NCBI GenBank assembly: GCA_964596415.1
Contig: CAZQSX010000005.1
Span: forward strand, 1-42,658
From: an uncultured Gammaproteobacteria bacterium
Lineage (GTDB): Bacteria; Patescibacteriota; Microgenomatia; Levybacterales; GWA1-39-11
Length of the DNA: 42,658 bases
Direction: 5' to 3'
Under the pieces are notes generated by a model that did not search any database, was not told the origin of the DNA, and was given only the letters and a program-made list of their open reading frames with translations. This document shows positions 9,980 through 27,900 of the stretch, piece by piece; position 1 is the stretch's first letter, and each line of letters opens with the position of its first letter. A program made the translations under genes and the position numbers.

Positions 9980-10337
9980 ACATAGAACTCTTTTACAGTC
10001 ATTTAAATACGCAGTAGATGGCGTGAAGTTTGCAGTAAAAGATAATCAGAATCTTCGTATTCATTTAGTTGCCGCAATAATTGTTGTTATTTTAAGCATT
10101 TTTTACAAAGTGGGTGCGTATGAAATGGGAATTCTAGGAGTAATGATTTTACTTGTAATCTCAACAGAAATGATAAACACGTCTATTGAAGAAATGACGA
10201 ATCTTATTACAAAAGAACACAGGCAAGAAGCAAAGATTGCAAAAGATGTTGCAGCTGGTATGGTTCTTTTGACAAGTATTGGATCAGTTATAGTTGGAGT
10301 TTTAATTTTTCTTCCGTATATTCTTAAATCCCTTTAG
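9972..10337 (+). CDS. dgkA: diacylglycerol/undecaprenol kinase family protein
   Basis: 121 aa with 3 TM segments. EMINTSIEEM and AKDVAAGMVLL are typical of prokaryotic DgkA. Overlaps the upstream gene by 8 nt. Confidence 0.8.
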   Translation: MVEHRTLLQSFKYAVDGVKFAVKDNQNLRIHLVAAIIVVILSIFYKVGAYEMGILGVMILLVISTEMINTSIEEMTNLITKEHRQEAKIAKDVAAGMVLLTSIGSVIVGVLIFLPYILKSL

Positions 10338-24719: not shown

Positions 24720-24791
24720 GGCCCCATCGTCCAGTGGTTAGGACACCAGATTCTCATTCTGGGAACCGGGATTCGACTTCCCGTGGGGTCA
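24720..24791 (+). tRNA. tRNA-Glu (anticodon CUC), no encoded CCA
   Basis: Folded by hand: GGCCCCA TC GTCC AGTGGTTA GGAC A CCAGA TTCTCAT TCTGG GAAC CGGGA TTCGACT TCCCG TGGGGTC A. All four stems pair. Confidence 0.9.
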
Positions 24792-24823
24792 CTATCTTTC
24801 GCTAAAGCTACAGATAGCAAGCT

Positions 24824-25141
24824 ATGTACTATACGTACATCCTCAGAAACAGTAAAACCAACCGATATTATATCGGCTATACTCCAGATTTGAAAAATCG
24901 AATTAACATGCACCTCTCGGGAAAGGTCTTTTCAACAAAATCAAACCTTAATTATAAACTAGAATGGTACTGTGCGTTTCAAACTCGCGAGCAAGCTCTA
25001 GCTTTTGAAAAGTACCTAAAGAGTGGCTCTGGGGTAGCTTTCATGAAGAAGAGATTTTTCAAAGATAATGTAGCTTTAGTGAAGGATAATAATCTTAGCG
25101 GGATTCTTGCTGCTCGAAGCTCTAAAAAGAGCGAAGTGTAG
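24824..25141 (+). CDS. GIY-YIG nuclease family protein
   Basis: 105 aa. The YYTYILRN...RYYIGYTPDLKNRINMH...E pattern matches the GIY-YIG / UPF0213 fold. Confidence 0.8.
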   Translation: MYYTYILRNSKTNRYYIGYTPDLKNRINMHLSGKVFSTKSNLNYKLEWYCAFQTREQALAFEKYLKSGSGVAFMKKRFFKDNVALVKDNNLSGILAARSSKKSEV

Positions 25142-25156
25142 TCCCGTGGGGTCACT
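25142..25156 (+). repeat. distal copy of the tRNA-Glu 3' end (15/15 identical)
   Basis: Direct comparison with 24779-24793. Confidence 0.9.
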
Positions 25157-25255
25157 TGAAGCTAATATATTTTATTCTTTAAAATTCATCAATTTTCTGA
25201 GGCTAAATAATTCGAATACCTTAAACTGTTTTGGGATTTTGATATAATCAAGCCC

Positions 25256-25744
25256 ATGACAGGTGAGATACCACATTTTTCAGAGGGATTTTATCAGCCA
25301 CTCCAATCATTTCCTGATGCACGGAATAAAATTGGACAATTACTAGCTAAACCACCAGGAACAATTACTGATGCTGAGCTTTTTGAAGGAATTGGAGATA
25401 CCCATATGACAGTGGCAACTATGCAGGTTATGTTAAGGGTAGAAGGGGTCCATGGACCGCAAACGCTCGATGATATAAAATGTCTAGATTTTAAAACTCC
25501 AAATGGATTGATAGGTACAGGTTTCTTTGTAAGAGATGGGGAACAGTACGCATACATTGATTTAGATGACTACACTCTCCACTTTTTCCGAGATAGAGGT
25601 GGTAGAGTATCCGTGCTGCACACTGACGATGAACAGGATGATGACCCTGGTCATAATATAGCACTTGACGCCGCCGAAAGAAGAAGAATTATGGAAGAAC
25701 TTATGAATTGTCTAGAATTTAGAAGCATATCTAGGATTGCCTAG
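25256..25744 (+). CDS. hypothetical protein (162 aa), acidic, visibly more GC-rich than its surroundings
   Basis: TGATATAAT (25240-25248) lies 7 nt before the ATG. No family recognised. Confidence 0.6.
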   Translation: MTGEIPHFSEGFYQPLQSFPDARNKIGQLLAKPPGTITDAELFEGIGDTHMTVATMQVMLRVEGVHGPQTLDDIKCLDFKTPNGLIGTGFFVRDGEQYAYIDLDDYTLHFFRDRGGRVSVLHTDDEQDDDPGHNIALDAAERRRIMEELMNCLEFRSISRIA

Positions 25745-25865
25745 AGATAGACTCATCATCCAGAGAGTTCTAATACCATAAAGGGGAGGATTACGCAGAA
25801 AGATATAGCCTCGAGGTTTGCTCACCAAACATTTGGTACATCTTAATAAGTTCAGGGATTACTTT

Positions 25866-25892
25866 ATTCCGTGCCGTCACACGTTGGGTCAC
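25866..25892 (+). repeat. degenerate tRNA-Glu 3'-end copy with a 12-nt insert (core A)
   Basis: ATTCCGTG-CCGTCACACGTT-GGGTCAC. Removing the insert gives TTCCGTGGGGTCAC. The preceding CAGGGATTACTTTATTCC resembles the T arm CCGGGATTCGACTTCCC. Confidence 0.6.
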
Positions 25893-25938
25893 TAAGTTCA
25901 AATTCGGTTACCCAAACCGCATAAGCTCGGAACTAAGA

Positions 25939-26772
25939 CTACTTATTAAAGAAGGTAACTGCTTGTCTTGCTAAATCTTGCGAGGCAGCTGTAATCACGG
26001 GAACATGTTCTTCTACTCCAAATTTTAAATAATATTCGTCATCCAAAGGTTTTCCGTCTAGACCTACCATTACGCCGCCTGCTTCAGTAATTAAGGGATA
26101 TGCAGTTGCAATCTCTAAACTTCCCTTTCTCGTGCATTCAAGCGTTAAGTCTGCAGCACCCATTGAGGTATCAGTATAGTGAAAAGATGAACATAGCTTG
26201 TAATCCATAACATTATATCCACTTAATTTGCTTGTAAAAACTTCATTATTTTTATCCCAATATTCATCAATATGAATTCTTGTTGTTGCAGTTAAGTCAT
26301 TTTCGCCAGAGGTGTGAATTCTTTTTTTGTCTCCTGTTTTCAAATCTATAACCCACGCTCCTTCACCTTTTACACCATAAAATAATCTTTTTGTAGCATG
26401 TTCCATTATTCCACCGAAAACATAATCTTTGTATTGTGGATTGACACCTTCATAAATGCCAAGCATTGTTCCATATCTTCCAACACCCCATTCACTTCTA
26501 TACCAACTAGAACCATCTATTCCATCTAAAACTCCTAATAAGTTTGGTTCTTCTGTTATTTTAACTTCTCCATGTTCCTCCGAGTGGATAACCGCAGGTA
26601 AATTATATTCTTTTAAAACCTTCAAAACTGCCTCTTCAGCTTCATAGTCACCTCTCATAGCTATATCACCAAATTGATTCTTTTGTAGGTCTTCTTTTCC
26701 ACCTTCACCTAGAGAATTGTGAATTTCAAAAGATGCTTGAAGTGCTTCAATACCTATTCTTTCAATATTCAT
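25939..26772 (-). CDS. inositol monophosphatase / FBPase-family phosphatase
   Basis: 277 aa. HSEEHGE (metal-binding EE), LDGIDGS (DPxDGT-like) and ITEAGG (WDxAAG-like). TGATATAAT (minus strand, 26779-26787) lies 6 nt before the ATG. Confidence 0.65.
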   Translation of the reverse strand: MNIERIGIEALQASFEIHNSLGEGGKEDLQKNQFGDIAMRGDYEAEEAVLKVLKEYNLPAVIHSEEHGEVKITEEPNLLGVLDGIDGSSWYRSEWGVGRYGTMLGIYEGVNPQYKDYVFGGIMEHATKRLFYGVKGEGAWVIDLKTGDKKRIHTSGENDLTATTRIHIDEYWDKNNEVFTSKLSGYNVMDYKLCSSFHYTDTSMGAADLTLECTRKGSLEIATAYPLITEAGGVMVGLDGKPLDDEYYLKFGVEEHVPVITAASQDLARQAVTFFNK

Positions 26773-26895
26773 AGTCAGATTATATCACTGTAACAATTCT
26801 ATTACCTACTGGGGGAAAGATTAGGTTTGAAATCCTAGCCCTGAGACATCTTTGGAAAATAAACGATATAAGTTTACAAGCTCAGGTATAACCAA

Positions 26896-26922
26896 ATTCC
26901 GTGCCGTCGCACGATGGCTCAC
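26896..26922 (+). repeat. degenerate tRNA-Glu 3'-end copy with the same 12-nt insert (core B)
   Basis: ATTCCGTG-CCGTCGCACGAT-GGCTCAC. It matches core A at 24 of 27 positions, and similarity extends about 100 nt upstream. Confidence 0.6.
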
Positions 26923-26963
26923 AGTAATTTGACACGTCCCGTAATGCGTGAAATACTAGATAG

Positions 26964-27680
26964 GTGGAAGAAAATAGTCAGAATCTAAACCAACCTCAGG
27001 TTCAAAACCCAATTCAAGAACCATCTCCAATTTCTCCACCAAATCCCGCTTCTAATAAATCCAGGTTAAAACTACCGATTATAATCGCAGGGATTGTTAT
27101 TTTTTTGATTATCATTGGCACAGCATCTGCCGCTCTTTTCCTTCCTAAATCAAACACGAGTACACCAATAGAAACAGAGGTAATAGTATCACCTCAACCG
27201 ACAGTAGTAGAAATAATCGCTACTTCAGCACCCTTATTGAGCTCCACGCCTACCTCACCCGTACCGACTTTTGATCCCACTTCAAGTTGGAAAATATATA
27301 CATCACCAAAATTTAGTTTTAAGTATCCTCCCACGCTTTATATTCAGGAACCTGACAAAGACTTTTTCGTTTTAACAAAAGCTGCGAATACACCAGCAAA
27401 TCTTGCAGAGTTCTCAGTTGATGCCCGTTTATCTGGTAACTATTCAAGCTACACCACTGCTGTAGAAAAAACAAAAGAAGGATTAACTAATATAACTACA
27501 GAAGCACTTCCGTACGGTATTAAGATTAAGGGGAAAGTGGGTCCAGGATATGGGGAGGGTACGTCAATTATAATTGCACTTCTGAAATATAACCAAAGTG
27601 CAATATCCTTTGAAACTAGTACAAATCCATTACAGGAGTCCCTCTTTAACCAAATCCTTTCTACCTTCAAAATAAACTGA
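26964..27680 (+). CDS. hypothetical membrane-anchored exported protein
   Basis: 238 aa with a GTG start. Pro/Gln-rich N-terminus and one TM helix. No family recognised. Confidence 0.55.
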   Translation: MEENSQNLNQPQVQNPIQEPSPISPPNPASNKSRLKLPIIIAGIVIFLIIIGTASAALFLPKSNTSTPIETEVIVSPQPTVVEIIATSAPLLSSTPTSPVPTFDPTSSWKIYTSPKFSFKYPPTLYIQEPDKDFFVLTKAANTPANLAEFSVDARLSGNYSSYTTAVEKTKEGLTNITTEALPYGIKIKGKVGPGYGEGTSIIIALLKYNQSAISFETSTNPLQESLFNQILSTFKIN

Positions 27681-27900
27681 TTCTAATTCCTAATGGTAGT
27701 TAGTCAATAGATTGAACTGAGGTCAGGTTGTAATATCTGCTCCCATTGTTCCAAAAAGCTTCGAATCTGGTTCTGCCACAAGGGCACTACCCATTGCATG
27801 GGGTCGTTTTCAAAAACATTCGAGTTGCAGTTCTTTTGTCAGGGTTTTGTCCATAAAAAATCAAGCGTCTCATTCTCTTTCACCTTATACTAATTTTCTT

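What the first reader, a model, noticed from the sequence alone, without database searches (positions are those of the whole stretch)
25771..26922. Two homologous ~125-nt non-coding modules flanking the IMPase-family gene
Seen: 25771-25892 and 26796-26922 align by eye over their whole length. Shared blocks are TA.TACC, GGGGA, GATTA, TAGCC, GAG, ACAT.TTTGG, ATAAGTT, TCAGG and the 27-nt core ATTCCGTGCCGTCRCACGWTGGSTCAC. There is one ~13-nt indel. Both are in the same orientation.

The first lies between convergent gene ends and the second between divergent gene starts. A shared UTR or promoter role for the neighbouring genes is therefore unlikely.

Inference: this is the conserved end of a repeated mobile or recombination module (an attC-like or element-terminus-like sequence), or a small structured RNA. 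A CGTG/CACG stem is conserved in the core.
Basis: seen in the sequence. Interest (0 to 1): 0.6.

Follow-up and report, generated by a model that had tools for sequence, protein, structure and literature searches.

The report
Orphan tails of split recombinase genes
The two "non-coding" repeats are the detached last ~33 codons of large serine recombinase genes, left behind where small mobile cassettes inserted next to a tRNA-Glu gene in a tiny-genome (Patescibacteria) bacterium; this shows a serine integrase whose own gene spans its attachment site.

Summary
Modules at 25768-25892 and 26797-26922 are homologous. A profile built only from copies in other genomes hits both over their full length (E about 1e-27).

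They are not non-coding. Their minus strand carries a conserved 33-38 codon frame, V(T/S)HRVTARNxVIPELxKLYRLFG... Third-codon-position changes dominate and dN/dS is about 0.34.

In a metagenome contig this peptide is the C-terminal tail of an intact 556-aa large serine recombinase (LSR). In seven homologous LSRs the protein switches, at the same V-T codons (GTGACC), into the complement of a tRNA gene, mostly tRNA-Glu(CTC). Where the DNA was examined, the tail module lies 5.7-8.7 kb away at the other end of the element. So attP lies inside the LSR gene, and integration at the tRNA 3' end splits off the tail.

In this window the LSR bodies are gone. tRNA-Glu is followed by a tandem array of small cassettes, each ending in a tRNA-like core:
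- a GIY-YIG gene;
- ORF162 plus module A;
- the IMPase-family gene plus module B;
- perhaps ORF238.

Contigs from three independent metagenome studies lack the 737-bp ORF162/module A cassette exactly, joined at an 8-nt core.

RNA-structure and attC readings are not supported. This is a new variant of a known kind (Mx8 and SSV1 integrases also span attP).

The parts
24720..24792 (+). tRNA-Glu(CTC). Anchor and target (attB) of the array. The complement of its 3' end, GTGACCCC..., is the sequence at which the recombinase genes switch.
   Evidence: Rfam 59.6 bits; ARAGORN. A tRNA-Glu(CTC) lies 0.3-6 kb upstream of a module, in the same order and orientation, in 7 loci.
24794..25156 (+). Cassette 1: small GIY-YIG ORF (24824-25141) ending in an exact 15-nt copy (25142-25156) of the tRNA-Glu 3' end (24779-24793).
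   Evidence: Pfam GIY-YIG 3.3e-16; repeat D2. The same tRNA / GIY-YIG / tRNA-end-repeat layout is seen in L052 from another genus.
25157..25893 (+). Cassette 2 (737 bp): ORF162 (25256-25744, +, no family) plus module A. Bounded by the 8-nt core GGGTCACT at 25149-25156 and 25886-25893.
   Evidence: Contigs of runs X2, X3 and X7 (three studies) join 25148 to 25886, skipping 737 nt, with 8 shared letters. X3 and X7 show no depth over 25198-25881.
25768..25892 (-). Module A: orphan 3' end of a large-serine-recombinase gene. Codons 25892->25794 (VTQRVTARNKVIPELIKMYQMFGEQTSRLYLSA), stop at 25791-25793, conserved 3' untranslated end 25768-25790.
   Evidence: Its nearest relative is a copy in another genus (L039, 80% identity), not module B (63%).
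25893..25943 (-). Possible last codons of a lost recombinase body (..PNLNL|VT) directly upstream of module A. Weak.
   Evidence: Fits the protein consensus [D/E/P]-N-[V/I/F]-[D/N]-L|VT of the intact genes. The nucleotide similarity is not significant.
25939..26772 (-). IMPase-family ORF (277 aa), the cargo of cassette 3 (25894-26922).
   Evidence: Pfam Inositol_P 2.9e-13; lies between the two module cores.
26797..26922 (-). Module B: second orphan recombinase 3' end. Codons 26922->26824 (VSHRATARNLVIPELVNLYRLFSKDVSGLGFQT), stop at 26821-26823, conserved end 26797-26820.
   Evidence: Nearest relative is L053 (80%). The flank beyond its core is orthologous to the flank of an intact element in same-genus genome G005.
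26923..27680 (+). Flank with a promoter-like TTGACA (26929-34) and ORF238 (26964-27680, membrane-anchored, no family). Either host flank or a fourth cassette.
   Evidence: A contig in run X7 joins a tRNA-Glu-like end (GACTTCCCGTGGGG) directly to 26919 onward. Homologues directly follow tRNA-Leu(TAG) in G002 and G005.
27680..27696 (+). 17-nt copy of the module's distal end motif (ATTCTAATTCCTAATGG) right after the ORF238 stop. Possibly a relic of a third module.
   Evidence: Degenerate end-motif pattern: 2 matches in the window (module B and this site), 0.01 expected. The rest of the stretch does not match the profile.

Best explanation
Each module is the detached 3' end of a large serine recombinase (LSR) gene: the last 33-38 codons plus about 25 nt of 3' untranslated sequence. 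The LSR belongs to a family of Patescibacteria integrative elements that insert at the 3' end of a tRNA gene, mostly tRNA-Glu(CTC).

Shown:
- The peptide is the C-terminal tail of an intact LSR.
- In integrated elements the homologous LSR body stops matching at the V-T codons (GTGACC, the complement of the tRNA acceptor 3' end) and reads on into the tRNA complement.
- The tail module then lies at the far end of the element, in the same orientation.
- So the element's attachment site lies inside the recombinase ORF, and the module's 27-nt 'core' starts at the crossover core.

Inferred:
- The core plus the next ~20 nt is the recombinase's binding half-site.
- The tail is selected because the episomal form of the enzyme carries it.
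- Integration swaps it for about 12 tRNA-encoded residues, as in phage Mx8 IntP/IntX.

In this window the recombinase bodies have been lost. What remains is a tandem array downstream of tRNA-Glu: GIY-YIG | ORF162 + module A | IMPase + module B | ORF238 (+ a relic). Every unit ends in a tRNA-like core. Modules A and B come from two different element lineages. At least the ORF162/module A unit is a discrete site-specific insertion or deletion in natural populations.
For: (1) Coding. All 9 first copies are open in one minus-strand frame. Pairwise differences by codon position are 221/139/470. dN/dS is 0.34 over 155 pairs, and the other two minus-strand frames carry stops in 21 of 21 copies.
(2) Family. 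23 distinct copies were found in Patescibacteria MAGs and metagenomes, with sharp common boundaries at GTGACCC and at ..GAAT.
(3) Identity. L066 ORF 127-1797 is a 556-aa Resolvase + Recombinase + Zn_ribbon_recom protein ending in the module peptide.
(4) Split. P0017-P0021 and the L040 and L060 recombinases align with it up to ..N[VIF][DN]L, then switch at V-T/V-S to 12-13 residues such as VTPREFESRLVE. In L040 and L060 this is directly seen to be the tRNA-Glu complement.
(5) Geometry. The module lies 5.7-8.7 kb from the recombinase, in the same orientation, in L040, L060 and same-genus G005. tRNA-Glu(CTC) lies upstream of the module with the same polarity in 7 loci.
(6) All four other LSR genes of this genome also end inside convergent tRNA genes (Asn, Gln, Pro, Ser).
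(7) A and B are each closer to copies in other genera (80%) than to each other (63%).
(8) A precise 737-bp absence of ORF162 + module A, joined at the 8-nt core, appears in three studies. A tRNA-like end is joined directly to the ORF238 flank in one run.
Against: No cognate recombinase was found in this 92.75%-complete genome; the best match is 25% identical. Activity here is therefore unproven.

Only one intact gene (L066) and one fragment (P0011) show body and tail contiguous. Whether L066 is episomal is unknown.

The crossover dinucleotide and the four cognate att sites of a single lineage were not obtained.

The target in G005 is not a recognisable tRNA.

Canonical LSR biochemistry (attP x attB only) does not by itself explain tandem arrays or the loss of a recombinase-less cassette.

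Nucleotide similarity of the supposed recombinase remnants next to module A and next to the 15-mer is not significant.

The population evidence is from assembled contigs, not raw reads.
Confidence: 0.8

Rival explanations
1. The modules are not dead scars but live attachment sites of recombinase-less single-gene cassettes. A recombinase supplied in trans inserts, excises and shuffles these cassettes, giving an integron-like array anchored on tRNA-Glu.
For: Cassette 2 has no recombinase, yet it is precisely present or absent at the 8-nt core in three studies. Several alternative continuations follow the tRNA end and the 15-mer in other populations. Two modules flank a single ORF in L045 as well. 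Many copies follow diverse single genes. Module frames are intact in 20 of 22 copies.
Against: No cognate recombinase was found in this genome. The polymorphism could equally reflect one ancestral insertion. Intact frames are expected anyway if the copies were recently shed from active genes. No circular cassette was observed.
Confidence: 0.3
2. Each module is a free-standing gene for a 33-38-aa protein (for example a small regulator or directionality factor) starting at the conserved GTG.
For: GTG is at the first codon in 19 of 22 copies. An in-frame stop lies 3-17 codons upstream in the nine first copies. Selection is purifying. Gene callers have predicted short ORFs there.
Against: No Shine-Dalgarno or promoter motif is shared upstream. 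The start codon is GTA, GCG or frameshifted in some copies. The peptide is contiguous with the recombinase in L066 and P0011. The boundary coincides with the tRNA junction of the split genes. No Pfam or NCBIfam family matches.
Confidence: 0.07
3. The modules are small structured RNAs or attC-like folded recombination sites acting on the plus strand.
For: Sequence conserved across genera with sharp ends. There are short hairpins: GGAAT..ATTCC and CGTG..CACG.
Against: Folding energies are no better than shuffles, with z from +1.17 to -0.90 on both strands. RNAalifold gives -3.9 kcal/mol and 2 covarying pairs. No Rfam match appears even at E 10. The variation has three-base periodicity, and synonymous changes break the hairpins.
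Confidence: 0.03
4. A local tandem duplication of an intergenic region around the IMPase gene.
For: Two direct copies 1030 nt apart; the two intergenic regions are of almost equal length.
Against: A and B are 63% identical, while each is 80% identical to copies in other genera and falls in a different clade. The same module occurs in unrelated contexts in more than 20 loci.
Confidence: 0.02

Closest known systems
Myxococcus phage Mx8 integrase (IntP -> IntX)
   Same: attP lies inside the 3' part of the integrase ORF, and integration gives the gene a new 3' end (PMC6070905). Islander notes that the Mx8 and SSV integrases extend across attP (PMC4383910).
   Different: Mx8 Int is a tyrosine recombinase of a phage. 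Here the enzyme is a large serine recombinase of small cargo elements in Patescibacteria, and the shed tails persist as orphan modules in cassette arrays.
SSV1-type 'suicidal' integrases of archaea
   Same: [quoted passage not shown] Integration into a tRNA gene partitions the gene into two pieces that flank the element (PMC8371274, PMC7253208).
   Different: Those are tyrosine recombinases, reported only in Archaea, and the gene is cut near the middle or N-terminal part. Here only the last ~35 codons are removed and replaced by ~12 tRNA-encoded residues, so the integrated enzyme may stay active.
Large serine integrases (phiC31, Bxb1, A118, SPbeta)
   Same: Domain order is Resolvase, Recombinase, zinc ribbon, coiled coil. 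The shared core between sites is short, as expected for a 2-bp crossover.
   Different: In those enzymes attP is intergenic, and targets are protein genes or intergenic sites. [quoted passage not shown] All five LSR lineages seen for this genome abut tRNA 3' ends.
Tycheposons of Prochlorococcus (tRNA-targeting cargo elements)
   Same: Cargo-carrying elements at tRNA genes, flanked by partial tRNAs. They show tandem integrations, degenerate remnants and population heterogeneity, and a minority carry a large serine recombinase (10.1101/2020.12.28.424599).
   Different: A different phylum. No recombinase gene spanning attP is described in the passages read. The units here are much smaller (0.36-1.0 kb, one gene).
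Integron gene cassettes and attC sites
   Same: An array of single promoterless-looking genes, each followed by a ~125-nt recombination-associated module in one orientation. Individual units are present or absent.
   Different: attC sites are defined by folded imperfect palindromes with little sequence conservation and are used by the tyrosine recombinase IntI. These modules are sequence-conserved, coding, not palindromic, and tied to a serine recombinase and a tRNA.

Membership tests
Large serine recombinase gene (3' terminal segment) | The peptide is contiguous, in frame, with a Resolvase + Recombinase + Zn-ribbon protein. | tested here: met
   L066 ORF of 556 aa. The P0011 fragment aligns from the zinc ribbon to the tail.
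Large serine recombinase gene (3' terminal segment) | A catalytic body is present next to the modules in this window. | tested here: not met
   No Resolvase or Recombinase match on contig C5. The four LSRs of the genome are on other contigs and are only 25% identical. The modules here are orphan fragments.
Integrase whose ORF spans attP (Mx8 / SSV type) | Integrated copies carry a different 3' end from the unintegrated gene, switching at the att core. | tested here: met
   Seven homologues switch at the same V-T/V-S codons to short tails. In L040 and L060 these are seen to be the tRNA-Glu complement. One gene (plus one fragment) keeps the native tail.
Integrase whose ORF spans attP (Mx8 / SSV type) | The enzyme is a tyrosine recombinase. 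| tested here: not met
   Pfam shows serine-recombinase domains only.
tRNA-targeting genomic island | An intact tRNA at one end and a displaced copy of its 3' end at the other. | tested here: met
   Exact 15-nt copy at 25142-25156. The 8-nt GGGTCACT recurs at module A's end, and GGCTCAC ends module B. The copy is short, as expected for a serine recombinase.
Integron attC site | An imperfect inverted repeat (R''-L'' / L'-R') folding into a stable hairpin. | tested here: not met
   Single-strand folds are no better than shuffles; no consensus hairpin.
Integron attC site | An IntI-type tyrosine recombinase and attI at the head of the array. | not tested
   No search for IntI was made. The head of the array is a tRNA gene.
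Known structured RNA family (Rfam) | A covariance-model match. | tested here: not met
   Only the two tRNAs pass gathering thresholds. Nothing overlaps either module at E up to 10.

The most novel reading that the evidence does not exclude
Patescibacteria carry a tRNA-anchored, integron-like cassette system run by a serine recombinase. Single-gene cassettes that lack a recombinase each keep the recombinase's tail/attP module, and a recombinase acting in trans inserts, excises and stacks them at the tRNA-Glu 3' end. The enzyme's own C-terminal tail is swapped on integration and acts as a built-in directionality or commitment switch.
Probability: 0.25. Interest if true: 0.8.

Novelty: new variant of a known kind. 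Interest (0 to 1): 0.6.

Why it matters
Three reasons.

First, it corrects an annotation trap. Conserved ~125-nt 'intergenic repeats' in candidate-phyla-radiation genomes can be shed ends of recombinase genes. They mark exact cassette boundaries.

Second, it documents serine integrases that target tRNA genes and whose ORF spans attP. In the papers read here, that arrangement is described only for tyrosine enzymes (Mx8 and archaeal SSV-type). It offers a natural test of whether an LSR C-terminal tail controls direction.

Third, it shows gene-sized, site-specific presence/absence variation at one tRNA locus in natural populations of an organism with a genome under 1 Mb. This is a concrete route for gene flux in Patescibacteria.

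The short, defined att core and compact enzyme could also interest people who mine LSRs as genome-engineering tools.

Tried and rejected
- Rfam at gathering and E<=10 thresholds: only the two tRNAs and two chance snoRNA-like hits inside coding regions.
- Single-sequence folds of both strands and RNAalifold: no support for structure.
- BLAST of module A against 40 relatives: nothing significant. Copies were found only with a degenerate pattern.
- Pfam, NCBIfam and ESM-Atlas searches on the peptide: nothing.
- Earlier-findings lookup: empty.
- Synteny downstream of Lon in same-genus genomes: too variable to define an empty site. Three of eight assemblies break right after Lon.
- Claimed recombinase remnants upstream of module A and of the 15-mer: nucleotide similarity not significant, p 0.06-0.6.
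- Putative third module at 27680-27806: only its 17-nt end motif matches. Profile and peptide HMM are not significant.
- Dyad symmetry around the junction: none convincing by eye; the crossover dinucleotide was not determined.
- No RNA holder was listed among public runs.
- Parts of the stretch without contig cover in some runs are not used as evidence, except where a contig bridges them.
- Structure prediction of the full recombinase was considered but not run. The tool returns no contacts, so docking of the tail could not be judged.

Full report
**1. The observation.**
The window holds two copies of the 27-nt core, at 25866-25892 and 26896-26922, with none expected by chance. There are no further copies in the 977-kb, 38-contig genome. 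They flank a 277-aa IMPase-family ORF on the minus strand.

Pairwise, A and B are only 58-63% identical. Outside the core their similarity is not significant on its own (Smith-Waterman p about 0.10). No 13-nt indel is needed. Full-length homology is nevertheless certain. A nucleotide profile made only from seven copies in other genomes finds exactly these two places in the whole genome, over profile positions 2-127, at E 1.2e-27 and 4.7e-27.

**2. Not RNA, but coding.**
- Rfam finds nothing.
- Folds of either strand are no more stable than shuffles.
- RNAalifold on nine copies gives -3.9 kcal/mol with two covarying pairs.
- A degenerate core pattern recovered seven more copies in six genomes among 245 of the same order, and none with the reversed control.
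- Translating all nine copies showed one minus-strand frame open in every copy: V(T/S)HR(V/A)TARNxVIPELxKLYRLFGxDVSRL...
- Differences fall 221/139/470 on codon positions 1/2/3.
- dN/dS is 0.34 over 155 pairs, and the other two minus-strand frames carry stops in all 21 copies.
- The 'CGTG/CACG stem' is codons 4-8.

**3. What the peptide belongs to.**
The peptide has no Pfam or NCBIfam family. A profile search of 1.84 billion representatives found only 12 proteins. Most were short ORF calls with unrelated N-terminal extensions. One was a 333-aa chimera whose C-terminal two thirds is a recombinase fragment ending in the peptide.

A pattern scan of genome and metagenome collections raised the set to 23 distinct copies, all in Patescibacteria-type contigs. 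All share sharp boundaries: GTGACCC at the coding start, and ..TAGGwAwTnGAAy after the stop.

In metagenome contig L066 the module is the end of an intact 556-aa ORF with Resolvase, Recombinase and zinc-ribbon domains, that is, a large serine recombinase (LSR). It ends ..ALGDPNVDL|VTQAVTVRNQVVPDLINYYHLFSQDISRLQLQPSSYSV.

**4. The gene is split by integration.**
Five database homologues (510-518 aa) and the recombinases of L040 and L060 align with L066 up to ..N[V/I/F][D/N]L. At the very V-T (or V-S) codons where the module begins, they switch to 12-13 residues such as VTPREFESRLVE or VTPLEFESRFPG.

In L040 and L060 that sequence is the complement of an intact tRNA-Glu(CTC), with the junction ..AAT|GTGACCCCACTGG. 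The module lies 6.0 and 5.7 kb away, in the same orientation, at the other end of the element.

In G005, a genome of the same genus, a module and a 518-aa recombinase bracket 8.7 kb in the same way. The flank beyond the G005 module is orthologous to the flank beyond module B in this window.

A tRNA-Glu(CTC) lies upstream of the module with the same polarity in seven loci.

So attP lies inside the recombinase ORF and attB is the 3' end of the tRNA. The 5' boundary of the module is the crossover core. The first 9-13 nt of the module match the tRNA complement.

All four other LSR genes of this genome also end inside convergent tRNA genes (Asn, Gln, Pro, Ser). One of them bounds a 7.2-kb element with a repeat of the tRNA-Gln 3' end.

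**5. What is in this window.**
No cognate recombinase exists in the assembly; the best match is 25% identical. The region reads as a decayed tandem array downstream of tRNA-Glu (24720-24792):
- Cassette 1 is a GIY-YIG ORF followed by an exact 15-nt copy of the tRNA end. The same layout recurs in another genus.
- Cassette 2 is ORF162 plus module A.
- Cassette 3 is the IMPase gene plus module B.
- ORF238 follows, and the 17-nt distal end motif of the module recurs right after its stop (0.01 expected). The rest of that stretch is not recognisably a module.

Modules A and B belong to different clades. Each is 80% identical to a copy in another genus, but they are 63% identical to each other. They therefore record two separate arrivals, not a local duplication.

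Five codons upstream of module A (PNLNL|VT) fit the recombinase consensus, but the nucleotide similarity is not significant.

**6. Population evidence.**
The locus is held by metagenomes from 14 studies: wastewater, sludge, freshwater and groundwater. Contigs from three runs of three studies join 25148 to 25886. This skips exactly 737 nt (ORF162 plus module A), with the 8-nt core GGGTCACT shared by both sides. Two of those runs have no cover over the skipped part.

One contig joins a tRNA-Glu-like end (GACTTCCCGTGGGG) directly to 26919 onward. Several different continuations follow the tRNA end and the 15-mer.

At least one module-bearing cassette is therefore a discrete, site-specifically gained or lost unit, although it has no recombinase of its own. 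These are contigs, not reads, so frequencies and circles cannot be judged.

**7. Mechanism and rivals.**
Best supported, at about 0.8: the modules are shed tails of LSR genes that span attP.

Inferred steps:
- The episomal enzyme carries the conserved tail, hence the purifying selection.
- The integrated enzyme carries a short tRNA-encoded tail.
- Arrays grow by repeated insertion at the tRNA.

Whether the orphan modules are still substrates for a recombinase acting in trans is open, at about 0.3. That would make an integron-like system.

A free-standing 33-aa gene is unlikely. There is no ribosome-binding site, the start is non-canonical in some copies, and the peptide is contiguous with the recombinase. 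RNA, attC and local-duplication readings are contradicted (sections 2 and 5).

**8. Relation to what is known.**
Integrases that extend across attP are known for phage Mx8 and for archaeal SSV-type viruses (PMC6070905, PMC8371274, PMC4383910). One review calls self-disrupting integrases exclusive to Archaea. [quoted passage not shown]

Tycheposons show tandem, tRNA-anchored cargo elements, a few of them with LSRs. I found no description of an LSR spanning attP in the papers searched. The library is incomplete, so this is absence of evidence only.

**Verdict:** a real feature, reinterpreted, and a new variant of a known kind.

Noticed in passing
window 24779-25156: A 363-bp unit holding only a 105-aa GIY-YIG ORF sits between the tRNA-Glu 3' end and an exact 15-nt copy of that end. 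The same tRNA / GIY-YIG / repeat layout occurs in L052 (another genus). Small GIY-YIG genes lie next to tRNA-Glu or next to modules in L051, L057, L058, L067, L091, L093 and L094.
   Followed up: partly
G000 contigs C29, C24, C17, C28: All four large serine recombinase genes of this genome end inside convergent tRNA genes (Asn, Gln, Pro, Ser), and their C-termini read like translated tRNA complements (..DSNLEP, ..LDSNQ, ..GDSNPR). On C24 a copy of the tRNA-Gln 3' end at 10116-10129 lies 7.2 kb from the tRNA and is followed by a ~30-codon open frame, a candidate second 'tail module'.
   Followed up: partly
L078 (G005:C7) 1229-1500; L077 (G002:C6) 1376-1560: Homologues of ORF238, with a TTGACA promoter-like box right at the boundary, directly follow tRNA-Leu(TAG). 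In G005:C7 a 19-nt copy of the tRNA-Leu 3' end lies about 140 nt downstream of the tRNA. This suggests the same kind of cassette traffic at a second tRNA.
   Followed up: no
L040 756-1772 (protein P0011): A chimeric ORF: a cytochrome-P450-like N-terminal fragment fused to a recombinase fragment (zinc ribbon to tail). It sits at the far end of a 6-kb element whose own recombinase abuts tRNA-Glu. It looks like debris of an older element in a tandem array.
   Followed up: partly
L066 2204-4011: Next to the intact recombinase lie an AAA_21/AAA_15 ATPase (397 aa) and a weak DUF4276 protein (204 aa). The pair looks like a defence-type cargo.
   Followed up: no
same-genus genomes G001, G003, G007 (Lon orthologue at contig ends): In three of eight same-genus assemblies the contig breaks immediately after the Lon gene, that is, at the position of the tRNA-Glu hotspot. 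Many module copies in other MAGs also lie within about 300 nt of contig ends. The locus seems to break assemblies.
   Followed up: no
window 26772-26800 and equivalents in L038, L053, L062: Within 10-40 nt after the distal end of many modules there is an extended -10 box (TGnTATAAT) and the start of the next gene, here the IMPase gene. The cassette gene may be transcribed from a promoter placed just past the module.
   Followed up: no
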